DNA of 64,000 bases, taken from NCBI GenBank assembly GCA_000002445.1, contig CP000067.1:1280001-1344000 (forward strand). Direction: 5' to 3'. Under the pieces are notes generated by a model. That model was not told where the DNA came from, searched no databases, and saw only the letters and a program-made list of their open reading frames with translations. Positions 5,046-11,160 of the stretch are shown here, piece after piece. The position numbers and the translations under genes were made by a program. This DNA is from Trypanosoma brucei. Taxonomy: Eukaryota. The first letter of the stretch is position 1, and every line of letters starts with the position of its first letter.

Positions 5046-6062
5046 CTTTTCTTTTTTCACCCAATCTATCATTCCACATCATTTCTCCCATTAGAACACG
5101 ATGGTATGGAGTAATAATGTGAGGTGAAGCACAAACATATGATGTGAGAAGGAGAGGTGTGACTGTAGTGTTCCATCCGAAGGAAGAGTTAACAAATAAC
5201 ATATACAGTAGCGACACTTCCCATACTGTGCACATAACACAGCATGGTATATTAGTATGCACAGGGGAAAACTATGTCGATATATAACGCACCTTTAGCC
5301 ACCGTACGGGGTGCAGTATCGTGATTGGGCCGTTCCTGAAAGCTAAAAATCCTATGGCGAACTGGAGCGCTCCGTGCAGGCAAAGTAGCTCCCTAAAAGT
5401 CCTCCGCGCACTGACCAGGTCGGTACGGACAAATTCCGTTGCAGAGGAGCGGAGAACCCCCCAGGAAATGTGGAACCTAGACTTCAAGACCAAGCGTCAC
5501 GACACCTCTATTCCGCCAGAGCCTGTGTTCGGTCGCCTCCGACCAAAGAATGGATCCTAAGACGACGGTGGAAACAACGCAACCCTACGAAGCGAGAGGC
5601 GTAAGAACCACTGACTAGCAAAACGACAATGCAGCGCAACTCCGATGAAGTGAAGCATGCTCCGGTCGGGAACCACCGGAAACTCGCAAACGACGATCTG
5701 GTTAGTCGAAAGGGGTCCAGTGTGCGCGCAGGACTCCGCACAACCGCACCCACCTCCCTTGGATAGCCCGGCGCAGTTCCACTGCATCCCGCGCAACGAC
5801 GGGCCGGGATTCTCTTCCACATCACCGGACAGCAGCATCTTAGTGCGTATGATACTGCTGATGGCACGCTGGCACGTGCCCAGGGACCGACAAATGAAAA
5901 GCGGTGTCCCAGCAAGACACTGCTGATCCCTGTGCCGTATGATGCCGTAGCCGGAGCAAAGCAGTGTTCCCCATGAAAGGAACGCTGTTGGCTCTTGGCT
6001 TCCCCCGATGATACGGGGTACTGGACCCTGGCACCACGTTGAGGTGGCCGGCATCGCCAGGG
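5046..6062 (-). mobile_element. ingi/RIME-type non-LTR retroposon remnant. The 5' end at 6062 is well defined; the 3' limit is unresolved, lying between ~5550 (a RIME-sized ~512 bp element) and the A-rich tract at ~5046-5062
   Basis: The minus-strand sequence starting at 6062 reads CCCTGGCGATGCCGGCCACCTCAACGTGGTGCCAGGGTCCAGTACCCCGTATCATCGGGGGAAGCCAAGAGCC..., the conserved 5' signature of T. brucei RIME/ingi as I recall it. An ATG at element position ~9 opens a 165-codon frame encoding ...LLSGDVEENPGP..., a canonical 2A ribosome-skipping motif known from ingi/L1Tc. Three overlapping minus-strand ORFs in different frames (5508-6124) fit a decayed element. RIME is ~0.5 kb with a ~160-codon ORF, which fits 6062 to ~5550. 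Confidence 0.55.
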
Positions 6063-7301
6063 TCCCTACACGTGAAAAACAGCTGCCAAGGTGGCCTGAC
6101 CGCTGGAAACCAATCTAGCACCAATTGTTGCCCTGAGATAAAAGAGGAGAAGCACTGAGAGCTTGGGAAACGGCCGGAGTGTCGTTGCTAACGTCTTCTC
6201 CCCTCTGCGGTCTCAGAAGTCACTTCACACAGGCCGCGTCTTTTGCAGAAGCGCCGCATCTCCGGGGCGCCACTTTTTGAGCTTCACTGCTGACACGTTA
6301 CGGTTGTTTTTACTACGAACAAAGATGAGGAGAGATTCAGCTACTCAGGAAGCTTCTAGACGCACCAAAGTTTCGGGTTTTGAGCCCACCAGCATAGGCA
6401 AACGTGCCCAAGCTAATGTGGTTGAAATGTCTCTTTACTAAATAGTGTCCATCCGTTCCTGAAGAGTGTGTGCAGACAACGTGCGGTGGAAGGCGAGTCT
6501 CCTAATGAGACCGTGTTGGGGAAAAGGTCAGGAAAGTTCTTCCATACAATTAGTGGAGTCCATGCCGCAGCGGTCACCTTTTTTACAAAAGAAGGATGCG
6601 CTCACTTAAAAGAAAGATACCACTCAAAGGGTTTCAGCGTATGAGAATGGACAAAGTGGTCTATTATAGCTTTTTTTTGTTGAAAGCCTGCATTACGAAT
6701 GGTTTTGGGCTTAGGAATGCAGAGTATTTTTTTGTACGGTTATCTTTGTATAAACACACTGTCCTCCCGTTTATGTACACAGCTGTTTGCAAGAGGGTGA
6801 AAATTTTAGAAAGCTCACCCAACCAAACCCAACCCTCTACGCCCCGCACGGGAGGTGAGTAAACTGCGCTTTCAGACACTTCCATATCGTTAGTAAATTA
6901 TCGTTTCAATTCATATTTGTGTAGGATGATGAGGAACGCTTACTGTTTCTTCAGCATGATAATTATTTCGTATATCTTTCTTGTCCGTAGTAAAAAGGGA
7001 AGGTAAGAACTAAACTATTCTTGGTGGAATGAGGGGGGAATTTAGTTGACATCTTCCCCCGCCACACCGTTACTTTTGCCATCCGAAGGTTCTTAAAACC
7101 TTGTCTCAGCACTCGTCAGCCACGACGTCGTGGCTGCCGCCATGATACGGTTACTTTCGGTGGTTTCATCCACATCGATGTATTTCGTGCACTTTGTAGT
7201 GCAGTCGCACTTTTTCCCCCCTTTAAATTAGGCGAAAACAAAACGCAGCGGTGCTTGTTGACAGTATTTTTTCAAGCCTGTCAGCCAGAAGAAAAGAAAG
7301 A

Positions 7302-7374
7302 CGCGCAGTCCGGGAATCGAACCCGGGGCTCCCGCTAATTGAGTGCGAGTGACTTTCCACTAGACTAACCGCGC
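7302..7374 (-). ncRNA. Aberrant tRNA-like gene with a 9-nt anticodon loop. Candidate trypanosomatid SRP-associated tRNA-like RNA, or a tRNA pseudogene
   Basis: The minus-strand sequence is GCGCGGT-TA-GTCT-AGTGGAA-AGTC-A-CTCGC-ACTCAATTA-GCGGG-AGCC-CCGGG-TTCGATT-CCCGG-ACTGCGC-G. The 7-bp acceptor stem, the T-arm (GGTTCGATTCC B box) and the A-box-like TAGTCTAGTGG are all good. The D-stem has one mismatch, and the anticodon stem CTCGC/GCGGG encloses a 9-nt loop instead of 7. The 3' end is followed by a T4 run (plus 7291-7301 is gaaaagaaaga), consistent with a Pol III terminator. Confidence 0.5.
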
Positions 7375-7443
7375 CACCTGAGCGTTTGGTGTTCAAAATT
7401 TATTGCAACGTGCAGCGTCCGAAGAACGGGAAATATAAAAAGG

Positions 7444-7516
7444 CTACGACGGGCGGGGATCGAACCCGCGATCTCTCGCGTGTGAGGCGAATGTCCTAAC
7501 CACTAGACGACCATCG
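7444..7516 (-). tRNA. tRNA-Val (anticodon CAC), 73 nt, CCA not encoded
   Basis: Manual cloverleaf: GCGATGG-TC-GTCT-AGTGGTTA-GGAC-A-TTCGC-CTCACAC-GCGAG-AGATC-GCGGG-TTCGATC-CCCGC-CCGTCGT-A. All stems pair, with two G-U pairs in the acceptor. U33, A37, T54-T55-C56 and A58 are present, and the discriminator is A73. The anticodon arm TTCGCCTCACACGCGAG is almost identical to metazoan tRNA-Val(CAC). A T5 run lies immediately 3' on the minus strand (plus 7431-7443). Confidence 0.8.
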
Positions 7517-7609
7517 CACGGTAAGCATTCCTCAGGGGTAGCTCATAGAAATGATTGTTGAACCGACCGGATCAAGGAACTTGCGGGTGTTGCGGACGAA
7601 TGGCTGTTA

Positions 7610-7890
7610 AGAGGCAAACCTGTTGGTTTGGAGGACTTTGGGGCGCACCCGGGTGGAGATGTTTCAGATGCGGAAGGGTTGGAAGAGTTGGAAGGGAGAT
7701 GCGAATCCACCACCTTACGCGAAGTGGGAGGCACGAAAAGGAAGCACGGCAACTGTAGCAAAAGCAACGTGAATGCCAGTGGTGTGTTTGCGTTGTTTCC
7801 GCGGCGCTGGAAAGAGTGCAAAGACCGGGAAAATAGAGTTGCGGTTCATATAAAACCGTATGCGTGCAATGCCCGGTGGTGAAGCAGGAT
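7610..7890 (+). ncRNA. Candidate 7SL (SRP) RNA gene, divergently oriented from the upstream tRNA. Boundaries are approximate (+/-15 nt)
   Basis: It contains an SRP-RNA helix-8-like motif, GGAGGCAC-GAAA-AGGAAGCACGGC, at ~7722-7750. This has a GNRA tetraloop and the 3'-side GGAAGCA(G)C signature of SRP RNA domain IV. The putative 5' end is ~97 bp from the tRNA 5' end at 7516, as in trypanosome Pol III small-RNA genes that use a divergent upstream tRNA as promoter. The 5' segment AAACCTG (~7628) can pair with the 3' segment CAGGATTT (~7883-7890). No long T-run terminator is seen (only TTT at 7888-7890), which lowers confidence. Confidence 0.4.
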
Positions 7891-9621
7891 TTAAGCAAAA
7901 AAAAAAAGAGATAAATACGCGGGGGGGGGGAAGTTTACGAGTTCAACATGTGAAAGGTGTTTCGTAGCAGGGGCTTTGATAATGCACATCAACCTCGTGA
8001 GTATGCACGGCCCCGTGGCACCGCTAAAGGGACTACGAGCAGTGGAGGGAAAGTGGGGTTAGCCATAGCCGCGCCGGTGTTGAGACCAAAATAAAAAAAG
8101 GGATGACGTGGAGGTAACAGTTAAGGAAGGAGAGGATAGAGAGAACAGGGTGGGGTTGGAATAAAATGTTCCTAGTAAACTTTTGATGTTCACGGGGCAC
8201 GTGGGACTCCAGAGAGTAAGGAGAGGTGCGCACTTAAGGCACACACAAGAAAAATGCATACTGAATCCGATTGCGCGCTCCGAGGGGTTTCCTGACGCTT
8301 TTATAAGGAAGTGGAAAGTGTGAAGTGAAACCCACCATTGCCCCATACTGCGGCTAAACGTAAGCGAGGCGAGTTGGTCTAAAAGGTTTAGTAGGAAGGA
8401 TACACGGCGATGGAAAGAAGGACGTTTACAACAAATTGAAGTTGGGCATCCAAGGATTGCTGAGCCACTTGCCCGAATGCACTGCCCTGAAGAATCTGAA
8501 GATGAAACATGAACTAATAGGCTTGATGGGGAAAGCGCCTCGCGGGGAGGCAAAATTGGCGGGGTTCCTTTCCGTTTGACTCGGAAAGGGAGGGTACCGG
8601 TGCTCAATGGTTGGGAAATGGCTCCGATCAGTGATGCGGAAGGAAGAGAACAAACAAATCAAGAATAGGGGCGCCCGAAACAAATCCACCACCGGAGACG
8701 TCGGATTGAGGAGTGTGTGTGTGTGTGGGGGGGGAAGGGGAGCAGCGGTGGAAGGACGATCTCTGCAAAGCACGGCGTAGACACAAATTGATTGTAGTTC
8801 ACTAATTCCCTCGTGGTCTGCTTTCGCCCATTCTCCATAGTGATGCATGAGTTCCCGCTGCGACTGTCAATGACGGGCTGCCCATCAACGGGCTGTTTCC
8901 ATTCAAAGAGGCAGGCAGCGCTGCGTGCGATTTCCATTCCCACGTGTTAGAAAAATCCACCGACAGTACAGGGTGACTTTTAGCTTGACTCAGCTCCGCA
9001 ACGCAAAGAGGAAAGGCAGCTTTTTTTTTTTTTTAAAAAAAAGAGATCTTGGGGCTGATCACGCACAAACGCCGATGTAAGAAACGTTGGCTTTTGTCTC
9101 ATTGTTGACTCGTCTTTCATGACACATTGGCCTGGGTCCCAGGCGCGAGGGAAGGAACCGCAACAGTTTAGCGGGGCTCAGTGTGGGTGATGTGGGTGCA
9201 AGCCGACTGAGCTCAGTTAATCGTCCCAATGATAATGCGGTGCAACTTTTTTGCCATAGTGTGTGTGCGTGTGTGTGTGTGCCCGAAAACCCTCCGCTAA
9301 CAACTCAGCTTTAGCGGTGGTTACATACATCGACGCAATTCATGCACCCCCGTTTGTCTCGGGCGTGTGGGTAACCATCGCTTCACCTATGTGGTGTAGA
9401 GAGCTGTGAAATTCAAGGAGAAAAAAACAGCATGTAAAAAGCAAAAACTCTGCTTACGTGTGTTGCTTGTGCTTCATCGGAAGGGGACACTCCGCGTAAG
9501 TTACAATAATTAGGTTAAACGCCCCTCGTACGGCACTCCAACTGCATTAGGTTCCATTTCCCCCTCCCCCCCCCCACACACACCCACTCTCCCCTCTGTG
9601 CGATCCGGGCCAGAAAATTCC

Positions 9622-11160
9622 TCAGCTGAAGGCAGCGGACTTTAGGGTCTGCACTTCAGTTTCTGCTGTCTTTATAATCGTCGGCGCTACCTTTCGGCGG
9701 GCCATCTCCATGCAGAGGGGCCGATGTGACTTGTAATCTTCTCGTTGACATGCCACACCACAATAAGATACGGTGCGGCAAGCGGCGCACTTCAGCACTT
9801 CTTTTACATTTCCCGGGCAACACGGATTGTGGCATTTCGGGGTAACCCCATTTTCATTTGGCGGCGTCTTACTGTGCACCGCAAGGTGATATTGAGGCTC
9901 GCTCAGGAAGGCGAATGTGGTGATGATGTACTCCTTAAGTGTGTGCAGATGCTGTGTCACACTACCTTTCCCGAGGCGTGTGTATATGTTGTCGGCGGTG
10001 GTGAGTGCGCGGTCCAGCACCGGAAGTTGTTCGCTTGCGCAGGCCATATTTTTCACTTCCCGTCGCACCACATGCAATGCGAGGGCGACGCTTGCAACAT
10101 GGGATGGAAGATCAGTATGCAGGTTTATTGACCCCGTCATGATCGCCTTCACGTGGCGGAATGCGTCGAACAGTGCTACTCTCGCTGCAAAAAGGGACCC
10201 ATTTTGAACCCTACGCACCGGCTTGTCGAGGAAAGGATTGCGGTAATCCAGTCGCTGGAGCAAATCCTCCACCAACTTACATGCAAACGCATCATCCTCC
10301 TTTACTGCCATCATAAGCAAACAGTCAATGACTTTCATTTTCTCAATGTCCTTTATAAACAACGTGTACGTGCTACGGAACTTCACGTAACATGGACAAC
10401 GGTCACAACAGACATATGTCCCAGTTCCATTCGCATTGGCACCCTGGAACATGCTATACACACCAACGCACGGGCTAAAGCAAAAGAACAGCGCCCTTAG
10501 CGAATCCATCAACGCACCAAAGATCTCCAAGTTGTCGAGCGAGGTCCTCAAACCATTTATTAAGCTGAGGGTGGTTTTCATAGCCTCTTCTGCATTGGAG
10601 GTGCTAAATTTGGTTGGAGTATTTCTGGGTTCCCCAATATCCAGTATGAATTCCTTAATGTTTCCGAGGGCTTCTACCTTCGAATTCACGTCCCATTGCG
10701 GGTACTTGGAAACAAGCCGGATAGCCTCAAAAACACGACGGGCGATGTCACAGAATGAATCCATACCCTTGGGAAACCGCGGCCATTCTTCCTCATCCTT
10801 CGCCGCCGTCGCGTTGTAGAACTCATAGCAAGCCTCTCCCAAAAAAGGGTCCTTATGGAGTACGGCGAATGCCATGAAGTCATTAAGCAGGCGAAGTGCC
10901 GCAGGGAAGCGGTCCTCTGGTTGAAAACAGGCTCCAATGTAATCCACCAACCATCCGAGGTCGATGGATTGAAAGGGATATCGGAGTACGGTTGCATTGT
11001 TCATTGTGCTTTCCACCGCTTGTGCATTTGCCAAACGGGTCTCATTACTGGGCGTGGATGGGGAAGTTGTCATGGTCGGTTTGACTAACAGGCGCGCATT
11101 ATTTTCAAGAACGAGCGCAAGGGGAGAAAAGCAACGGGAGATGGATGAGGGACTCGTCAT
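9622..11160 (-). CDS. MYND-type zinc finger protein
   Basis: The 512 aa ORF has a C-terminal CHNPCCPGNVKEVLKCAACRTVSYCGVACQREDYKSHRPLC. This matches the MYND C-x2-C...C-x2-C...C-x3-C...H-x3-C arrangement. The rest is helical with no other recognised domain. Confidence 0.7.
   Translation of the reverse strand: MTSPSSISRCFSPLALVLENNARLLVKPTMTTSPSTPSNETRLANAQAVESTMNNATVLRYPFQSIDLGWLVDYIGACFQPEDRFPAALRLLNDFMAFAVLHKDPFLGEACYEFYNATAAKDEEEWPRFPKGMDSFCDIARRVFEAIRLVSKYPQWDVNSKVEALGNIKEFILDIGEPRNTPTKFSTSNAEEAMKTTLSLINGLRTSLDNLEIFGALMDSLRALFFCFSPCVGVYSMFQGANANGTGTYVCCDRCPCYVKFRSTYTLFIKDIEKMKVIDCLLMMAVKEDDAFACKLVEDLLQRLDYRNPFLDKPVRRVQNGSLFAARVALFDAFRHVKAIMTGSINLHTDLPSHVASVALALHVVRREVKNMACASEQLPVLDRALTTADNIYTRLGKGSVTQHLHTLKEYIITTFAFLSEPQYHLAVHSKTPPNENGVTPKCHNPCCPGNVKEVLKCAACRTVSYCGVACQREDYKSHRPLCMEMARRKVAPTIIKTAETEVQTLKSAAFS

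What the first reader, a model, noticed from the sequence alone, without database searches (positions are those of the whole stretch)
7302..7374. tRNA-like gene with intact Pol III boxes but a 9-nt anticodon loop
The acceptor stem, T-arm and A/B boxes are canonical. The anticodon stem CTCGC/GCGGG encloses ACTCAATTA (9 nt) and the D-stem has a mismatch. It cannot be assigned an amino-acid identity. It is too short (73 nt) for tRNA-Sec and has no Tyr-type intron. The options are a decaying tRNA pseudogene that survives as a promoter element, or a functional non-tRNA small RNA such as the SRP-associated tRNA-like RNA of trypanosomatids.
Basis: seen in the sequence. Interest (0 to 1): 0.6.

Follow-up and report, generated by a model that had tools for sequence, protein, structure and literature searches.

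The report
Known trypanosome SRP tRNA-like RNA gene
This 73-base tRNA-shaped gene is the already published sRNA-76 of Trypanosoma brucei, a tRNA look-alike that is part of the parasite's signal recognition particle rather than a decoder of codons, so the finding is real but not new.

Summary
On the minus strand at 7374..7302 there is a 73-nt cloverleaf with a 7-bp acceptor stem, a canonical T arm, A and B boxes, a U·U mismatch in the D stem and a 5-bp anticodon stem closing a 9-nt loop, ACUCAAUUA. Infernal folds it the same way (tRNA model, 40.3 bits against a threshold of 29).

The window is Trypanosoma brucei: a flanking protein is 100% identical to one from T. b. equiperdum. Two published tables place "sRNA-76, tRNA-like" at Tb927 chromosome 4, 1287302-1287374, minus strand, and tRNA-Val at 1287445-1287517, minus strand. 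These equal the window coordinates plus 1,280,000.

The feature is therefore the sRNA-76 gene (Tb927.4.4663), once mis-annotated as tRNA-Sec. Its RNA co-purifies with 7SL RNA in the trypanosomatid signal recognition particle. The Leptomonas homologue, sRNA-85, base-pairs with the truncated Alu end of 7SL and contacts the ribosome, and is thought to supply elongation arrest.

The pseudogene/promoter alternative fails, because no divergent small-RNA gene can lie at the required distance.

Already known; low interest. One side observation: the gene lies 70 bp downstream of tRNA-Val(CAC), is 67% identical to it, and is absent from the syntenic locus in six other Trypanosoma species.

The parts
7302..7374 (-). 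[quoted passage not shown]
   Evidence: Rfam tRNA model 40.3 bits with a 9-nt anticodon loop. Coordinates, strand and neighbour match the published sRNA-76 entry, Tb927_04_v4 1287302-1287374 (-1), with an offset of 1,280,000. A second paper identifies the chr4 'tRNA-Sec' as sRNA76. An identical copy lies at the same place in T. b. equiperdum.
7357..7367 (-). Internal Pol III A box TAGTCTAGTGG (RNA positions 8-18)
   Evidence: Read from the sequence. It matches the general eukaryotic consensus TRGCNNAGTGG at 10 of 11 positions (consensus from established knowledge). GTCTAGTGG is also present in the adjacent tRNA-Val.
7313..7323 (-). Internal Pol III B box GGTTCGATTCC (RNA positions 52-62)
   Evidence: Read from the sequence. 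Perfect match to the consensus GGTTCGANTCC (established knowledge).
7336..7344 (-). Enlarged 9-nt anticodon loop ACUCAAUUA, closed by CUCGC/GCGGG
   Evidence: In the Leptomonas homologue sRNA-85 the anticodon arm also carries extra nucleotides, and its loop cross-links to helix 31 of small-subunit rRNA (PMC2800229). Applying this to sRNA-76 is inference.
7345..7360 (-). RNA positions 15-30 (GUGGAAAGUCACUCGC): expected 7SL-pairing region, by analogy with sRNA-85
   Evidence: PMC2800229 states that sRNA-85 positions 15-30 pair with 7SL positions 26-42. This was not tested for T. brucei because no 7SL sequence could be obtained. Inference only.
7292..7295 (-). T4 run within TCTTTCTTTTCTTC, the likely Pol III terminator 7-10 nt past the gene
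   Evidence: Read from the sequence. Function is inferred from the general Pol III rule.
7445..7517 (-). tRNA-Val(CAC) (Tb927.4.4666), 70 bp upstream on the same strand, with its own T5 terminator at 7437-7441
   Evidence: Rfam 60.9 bits. Published coordinates 1287445-1287517 (-1). The sequence scores identically (60.9 bits) in T. rangeli, T. vivax, T. theileri and T. melophagium.

Best explanation
The feature is the single-copy gene for sRNA-76 of Trypanosoma brucei (Tb927.4.4663, chromosome 4).

How it is most likely made (inferred): RNA polymerase III transcribes it from its internal A and B boxes and stops at the T-run just downstream. Processing is tRNA-like; 73 nt plus CCA would give the 76 nt of its name.

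How it most likely works: the RNA does not decode. It joins the signal recognition particle, which in trypanosomatids has a 7SL RNA with a truncated Alu domain and lacks SRP9/14. In the Leptomonas homologue sRNA-85, the 5' part of the tRNA-like RNA (D-arm region, nt 15-30) base-pairs with nt 26-42 of 7SL. Its anticodon loop and 3' part contact the ribosome at SSU helix 31, the sarcin-ricin loop and the peptidyl-transferase centre. The published proposal is that it replaces the Alu domain and supplies elongation arrest.

What is shown here: the identity of the gene, its fold and its Pol III signals. Taken from the literature: SRP association for sRNA-76, and 7SL pairing and ribosome contacts for sRNA-85. 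Inferred: transfer of the pairing and contact details from sRNA-85 to sRNA-76, and the arrest function itself.
For: (1) Organism. The flanking MYND-finger protein is 100% identical to T. brucei equiperdum and 43-54% identical to other Trypanosoma species.

(2) Locus identity. They list tRNA-Val at 1287445-1287517 (-1). Both differ from the window hits 7302-7374 (-) and 7445-7517 (-) by exactly 1,280,000.

(3) PMC2695483 found independently, by BLAST with the published RNA, that the chr4 'tRNA-Sec' is sRNA76, in locus chr04-V.

(5) Function from the literature: co-purification with 7SL, replacement of the missing Alu domain, and ribosome cross-links.

(6) The sequence is identical in T. b. equiperdum.
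Against: The primary papers with the RNA sequence (Beja 1993, Liu 2003, Lustig 2005) are not in the held library. Identity therefore rests on coordinates and on two secondary papers, not on a direct alignment to the sequenced RNA.

Complementarity to T. brucei 7SL could not be checked, because no 7SL sequence was available.

No orthologue from another species could be fetched, so there is no covariation support for the fold. The single-sequence fold is not better than shuffled controls (z = -1.18), which is usual for tRNAs.

Elongation arrest by this RNA is a proposal in the literature, not a demonstrated activity.
Confidence: 0.96

Rival explanations
1. A decaying tRNA pseudogene kept only because its A and B boxes act as an extragenic promoter for a divergently transcribed small RNA gene, as with the tRNA-like elements upstream of U2 and other snRNA genes in trypanosomatids.
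For: Trypanosomatids do use tRNA and tRNA-like sequences in this way (PMC4950102). The element has intact A and B boxes, a damaged D stem and an abnormal anticodon loop.
Against: In such arrangements the A box lies 104-106 bp upstream of a divergently oriented snRNA gene. Here that start point (7471-7473, plus strand) falls inside tRNA-Val, which is on the same strand as the tRNA-like gene. Rfam finds no small RNA in 6000-9000 at E up to 10 apart from the two tRNA hits. The acceptor, anticodon and T stems are all intact, and the cloverleaf is as stable as that of the neighbouring real tRNA. The literature identifies the product as a stable RNA in the SRP.
Confidence: 0.02
2. A working decoding tRNA with an expanded anticodon loop, for example a Leu(CAA) or UGA-reading/Sec-type tRNA, or a frameshift-type suppressor.
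For: It scores above the Rfam tRNA threshold. ARAGORN calls it Leu-CAA and GeneDB once called it Sec-TCA.
Against: tRNA-Leu is a class II tRNA with a long variable arm, whereas this molecule has a 4-nt variable loop. The genuine T. brucei tRNA-Sec genes are on chromosome 9 and are about 88-93 nt long. The loop has 9 nt; if forced to 7 nt, it needs an A·A closing mismatch and has U at position 37 (sequence). The homologue sRNA-85 is reported to be uncharged. The different programs do not agree on an anticodon.
Confidence: 0.02

Closest known systems
T. brucei sRNA-76 (Beja, Ullu & Michaeli 1993; Tb927.4.4663)
   Same: Same organism, chromosome, coordinates, strand, length and neighbour. It is this gene.
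   Different: Nothing detectable. Direct alignment to the originally sequenced RNA could not be run.
Leptomonas collosoma sRNA-85 (Liu et al. 2003; Lustig et al. 2010, PMC2800229)
   Same: A tRNA-like RNA of the SRP with an abnormal, enlarged anticodon arm, presented in the literature as the counterpart of sRNA-76.
   Different: 85 nt against 73/76 nt. It is described as having a longer anticodon stem with several bulges, whereas sRNA-76 has a regular 5-bp stem and a 9-nt loop.
tRNA-Val(CAC) of Trypanosoma (window 7445-7517)
   Same: 67% identity (50 of 75 aligned columns). Shared features are GUCUAGUGG in the D arm, the anticodon-stem core UCGC/GCG, CUCA in the loop and the T arm. T. cruzi sRNA76-like genes were auto-annotated as Val-CAC, and a review says sRNA-76 is shaped like tRNA-Val.
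   Different: sRNA-76 has two extra loop nucleotides, no CAC anticodon, a D-stem mismatch, a different acceptor stem and discriminator G instead of A. tRNA-Val scores 60.9 bits against 40.3.
tRNA-like promoter elements upstream of trypanosomatid snRNA genes (e.g. L. major U2, PMC4950102)
   Same: tRNA-derived sequences with A and B boxes, transcribed by Pol III.
   Different: Those elements do not fold into a cloverleaf and sit 104-106 bp upstream of a divergent snRNA gene. This one folds as a cloverleaf and has no such partner.
Alu domain of mammalian SRP (7SL 5' domain plus SRP9/14)
   Same: Proposed functional equivalent. sRNA-85 cross-links to the sarcin-ricin loop, as the Alu domain does.
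   Different: A separate RNA molecule of tRNA origin, joined to 7SL by base pairing, with no SRP9/14. The likeness is one of function, not of family membership.

Membership tests
sRNA-76 / trypanosomatid SRP tRNA-like RNA | Lies at the published sRNA-76 locus of T. brucei TREU927 (chr4 1287302-1287374, minus strand, 70 bp downstream of tRNA-Val(CAC)) | tested here: met
   Window hits 7302-7374 (-) and 7445-7517 (-) equal the published coordinates minus 1,280,000. The organism is T. brucei. A second paper agrees.
sRNA-76 / trypanosomatid SRP tRNA-like RNA | tRNA-like cloverleaf that departs from the canon in the anticodon arm | tested here: met
   9-nt loop and D-stem mismatch in the Infernal alignment and in the hand fold. 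sRNA-85 is described likewise.
sRNA-76 / trypanosomatid SRP tRNA-like RNA | Pol III gene: internal A and B boxes and a downstream T-run | tested here: met
   TAGTCTAGTGG, GGTTCGATTCC and TTTT at 7292-7295. Transcription itself was not tested.
sRNA-76 / trypanosomatid SRP tRNA-like RNA | Sequence identical to the RNA sequenced by Beja et al. 1993 | not testable with these tools
   The primary papers are not held, and a text search for sequence fragments found nothing relevant. Indirect support comes from the BLAST-based identification in PMC2695483.
sRNA-76 / trypanosomatid SRP tRNA-like RNA | Base-pairing with the 5' (truncated Alu) domain of 7SL RNA | not tested
   No T. brucei 7SL sequence could be obtained. 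Known for sRNA-85 (nt 15-30 with 7SL nt 26-42). Complementarity to 7SL is asserted for both RNAs in PMC6413958.
sRNA-76 / trypanosomatid SRP tRNA-like RNA | Co-purifies with 7SL RNA / SRP and is not aminoacylated | not testable with these tools
   Experimental property, reported in the literature.
Canonical elongator tRNA | Rfam tRNA model score at or above the gathering score | tested here: met
   40.3 bits against 29. This shows tRNA shape only.
Canonical elongator tRNA | 7-nt anticodon loop with U33 and a purine at 37, giving a readable anticodon | tested here: not met
   The loop is 9 nt. Programs give Leu-CAA or Sec-TCA. A forced 7-nt loop needs an A·A closing pair and has U37.
tRNA-Leu (ARAGORN label) | Class II tRNA with a long variable arm | tested here: not met
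   The variable loop is 4 nt, AGCC. Class II is defined in PMC2695483.
tRNA-Sec (old GeneDB label) | About 87-93 nt with a long variable arm; genuine copies lie on chromosome 9 | tested here: not met
   73 nt with a 7/5 acceptor/T arrangement. The genuine tRNA-Sec genes are at chr9 505605-505697 and 509442-509534.
snRNA-promoter tRNA-like element | A box 104-106 bp upstream of a divergently transcribed small RNA gene | tested here: not met
   The predicted start, 7471-7473 (+), lies inside tRNA-Val. Rule from PMC4950102. No Rfam hit there.

The most novel reading that the evidence does not exclude
The SRP tRNA-like RNA may descend from tRNA-Val(CAC) by tandem duplication, with the T. brucei arrangement a relic of that event (or a lineage-specific re-creation of it).

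Supporting observations: in T. brucei the two genes are head to tail, 70 bp apart and 67% identical. The T. cruzi copies are still auto-called Val-CAC. The syntenic loci of T. vivax, T. theileri, T. melophagium and T. rangeli keep tRNA-Val but lack the tRNA-like gene, so the gene has moved or been lost from this locus several times.

The evidence here neither establishes nor excludes this. 67% identity between two class I tRNAs of one genome is only mildly elevated, and no panel of other T. brucei tRNAs was available for comparison.
Probability: 0.3. Interest if true: 0.3.

Novelty: already known. Interest (0 to 1): 0.1.

Why it matters
sRNA-76 is itself a remarkable molecule. It makes the trypanosomatid SRP the only known SRP built from two RNAs, with a tRNA look-alike standing in for the Alu domain. 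It was described in 1993, however, and this exact locus has been flagged twice in print as a mis-annotated 'tRNA-Sec'.

The value of the finding here is as a check on the scan: reading raw sequence picked out a true non-decoding tRNA-like gene and named the right comparison. It is also a reminder that automatic tRNA finders still mislabel this gene (ARAGORN: Leu-CAA).

The only mildly new points are the lack of synteny of the gene among Trypanosoma species and its resemblance to the adjacent tRNA-Val(CAC).

Tried and rejected
(1) Orthologues by synteny, MYND-finger anchor. I fetched loci from T. rangeli, T. vivax (two assemblies), T. cruzi (three assemblies), T. theileri, T. melophagium, an unnamed Logan assembly and T. 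b. equiperdum. Only T. b. equiperdum carries the tRNA-like gene. Four species keep tRNA-Val alone; T. cruzi and the Logan contig have neither.

(2) Orthologues by synteny, NTPase (DUF84) anchor on the other side. No tRNA or tRNA-like gene was found in the T. cruzi or T. grayi loci.

(3) T. congolense: the protein is not on record in the contig index.

(4) Primary papers (Beja 1993, Liu 2003, Lustig 2005) are not held.

(5) A full-text search for fragments of the sRNA-76 sequence, or of its complement as a way to reach 7SL, returned only unrelated primer hits.

(6) The supplements of the 7SL-sRNA paper hold no 7SL sequence. The supplement of the RNA-walk paper is not held.

(7) 'Candidate 7' of PMC3091756 turned out to be tRNA-Sec, not sRNA-76.

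(8) Single-sequence MFE folding does not give the cloverleaf and is not better than shuffles (z = -1.18). I gave this no weight because genuine tRNAs behave the same way.

(9) Weak Rfam hits on the opposite strand (Plastid-ycf2, Tymo_tRNA-like) are mirror images of the tRNA genes, far below threshold, and were dismissed.

Full report
**Observation.** The minus strand of the window from 7374 to 7302 reads GCGCGGUUAGUCUAGUGGAAAGUCACUCGCACUCAAUUAGCGGGAGCCCCGGGUUCGAUUCCCGGACUGCGCG. Laid out as a cloverleaf, it has these parts:
- a 7-bp acceptor stem with one G·U;
- an A box, TAGTCTAGTGG (7357-7367);
- a D stem GUCU/AGUC with one U·U mismatch, and a 7-nt D loop;
- an anticodon stem CUCGC/GCGGG enclosing nine nucleotides, ACUCAAUUA (7336-7344);
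- a 4-nt variable loop;
- a T arm CCGGG-UUCGAUU-CCCGG that contains a perfect B box, GGTTCGATTCC (7313-7323);
- a discriminator G.

Downstream comes TCTTTCTTTTCTTC, with a T4 run at 7292-7295.

The Rfam tRNA covariance model reaches the same fold on its own. It places a 9-nt insertion where the 7-nt loop belongs and marks one non-canonical D-stem pair. It scores 40.3 bits (threshold 29; E = 4.8e-5 for the whole window against all families), against 60.9 bits for the neighbouring tRNA. The cloverleaf is only 1.4 kcal/mol above the minimum-energy fold, about the same gap as for the true tRNA next door.

**Identity calls by programs.** ARAGORN labels the gene tRNA-Leu (CAA). That cannot hold, because tRNA-Leu is a class II tRNA with a long variable arm and this molecule has four variable nucleotides. 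GeneDB once labelled it tRNA-Sec, presumably because UCA can be read in the 9-nt loop. Infernal assigns no anticodon. This disagreement is what one expects of a tRNA-shaped RNA that is not a decoder.

**What and where it is.** The protein encoded at 9622-11160 (minus strand, MYND finger) is 100% identical to a Trypanosoma brucei equiperdum protein and 43-54% identical to orthologues in other Trypanosoma species.

Supplementary files 1 and 2 of Doniger et al. [quoted passage not shown] Next to it they list 'tRNA Valine, Tb927_04_v4 1287445-1287517, -1, Tb927.4.4666'. The two Rfam hits in the window are 7302-7374 (-) and 7445-7517 (-). All four numbers differ from the published ones by exactly 1,280,000, with the same strand, lengths and spacing. 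I conclude that the window is T. brucei TREU927 chromosome 4, 1,280,001-1,344,000, and that the feature is the sRNA-76 gene.

Padilla-Mejia et al. [quoted passage not shown] The genuine tRNA-Sec genes are on chromosome 9. The T. b. equiperdum genome has the same tRNA-Val/sRNA-76 pair, and its 73-nt sequence is identical.

**How it works.** This part rests on the literature plus inference. [quoted passage not shown] The 7SL RNA has a truncated Alu domain, and the Alu-binding proteins SRP9/14 are absent.

For sRNA-85, the published findings are:
- nt 15-30 base-pair with nt 26-42 of 7SL;
- the RNA is uncharged;
- the anticodon arm carries extra nucleotides;
- U36 in the anticodon loop cross-links to helix 31 of small-subunit rRNA, and deleting the loop abolishes only that contact;
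- further cross-links go to the sarcin-ricin loop (helix 95), the peptidyl-transferase centre (helix 92) and helix 63.

The authors propose that the tRNA-like RNA mimics the Alu domain and pauses elongation.

For sRNA-76 I show the gene, the fold and the Pol III signals. I infer that transcription uses the internal A and B boxes and stops at the T-run. I infer that 73 nt plus CCA accounts for the 76-nt size. I also infer that the D-arm/anticodon-stem region (7345-7360) pairs with 7SL. The pairing could not be tested because no 7SL sequence was obtainable.

**Rivals.** The 'pseudogene kept as a promoter' reading fails on geometry. In trypanosomatids the A box of a promoter tRNA or tRNA-like element lies 104-106 bp upstream of a divergently oriented small RNA gene (PMC4950102). 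For this element that start would be at 7471-7473 on the plus strand, which is inside tRNA-Val. A permissive Rfam search of 6000-9000 finds no other small RNA.

The 'odd but working tRNA' reading fails on three counts: the 9-nt loop, the lack of class II or Sec architecture, and the reported lack of charging of the homologue.

**Surroundings and comparison.** Using the MYND-finger gene as anchor, I fetched the syntenic loci of other trypanosomes. T. rangeli, T. vivax, T. theileri and T. melophagium keep an identically scoring tRNA-Val(CAC) just downstream of the MYND gene (inverted in T. vivax). None has a tRNA-like gene beside it. T. cruzi has neither gene within 10 kb. Anchoring on the NTPase gene on the other side also found nothing in T. 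cruzi or T. grayi.

The literature says T. cruzi does have sRNA76-like genes elsewhere. They are 75% identical to the T. brucei gene and were auto-annotated as Val-CAC. So the gene is conserved but its position is not.

In T. brucei it lies 70 bp downstream of tRNA-Val(CAC) and is 67% identical to it. The two share the D-arm 5' half, the core of the anticodon stem and CUCA in the loop. [quoted passage not shown] This is compatible with an origin from tRNA-Val(CAC). I could not test it properly, for lack of the other T. brucei tRNAs and of orthologues.

**Verdict.** The feature is an already known, experimentally characterised gene, so novelty is nil and interest is low. The molecule remains biologically unusual, and automatic tools still mislabel it.

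Noticed in passing
window 5557-6054 (-): A 165-aa ORF contains SSIIRTKMLLSGDVEENPGP. From my own knowledge this is the 2A-like 'ribosome skipping' peptide of the T. brucei ingi/RIME (TSR1) retroposon family. There is no Pfam hit, and no long RT ORF lies nearby, so it is probably a RIME or a degenerate ingi about 1.2 kb downstream of sRNA-76. T. cruzi tRNA loci are reported to be associated with transposable elements.
   Followed up: partly
window 7445-7517 (-); L001 8320-8392, L002 12627-12699, L005 12069-12141, L006 11932-12004: tRNA-Val(CAC) scores identically (60.9 bits) in T. brucei, T. rangeli, T. vivax, T. theileri and T. melophagium, and stays just downstream of the MYND-finger gene. 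It is inverted in T. vivax, and it is about 2.1 kb from the MYND gene in T. brucei against 0.3-0.6 kb in T. rangeli, T. theileri and T. melophagium.
   Followed up: partly
window 7374-7302 vs 7517-7445: sRNA-76 and the adjacent tRNA-Val(CAC) are 67% identical (50/75) and lie head to tail, 70 bp apart. This is a possible trace of origin by tandem duplication.
   Followed up: partly
window 7614-7616 (+) onward: This is where a divergent small RNA gene would start if tRNA-Val served as an extragenic promoter. Rfam finds nothing there at E up to 10, and the first 160 nt show no obvious T-run.
   Followed up: partly
L009-L013 (T. cruzi), L014 (T. grayi): Synteny between the MYND-finger gene and the NTPase (DUF84) gene is broken in T. 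cruzi. DGF-1 genes lie within the 10-kb flanks of both anchors, beyond the MYND gene in L010 and upstream of the NTPase gene in L011. A thiolase gene sits directly upstream of the NTPase gene in T. cruzi and T. grayi. No long ORF that could be a thiolase gene lies in the 6 kb upstream of the NTPase gene in the T. brucei window.
   Followed up: no
L005 12240-12282 (T. theileri): A run of about 40 T lies roughly 100 bp downstream of tRNA-Val(CAC).
   Followed up: no
window 7442-7518 vs 7445-7517: ARAGORN's bounds for tRNA-Val (77 nt, anticodon at position 35) differ from those of Rfam and the published annotation (73 nt). ARAGORN was run with bacterial settings, and its labels on this eukaryotic window need care.
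   Followed up: yes
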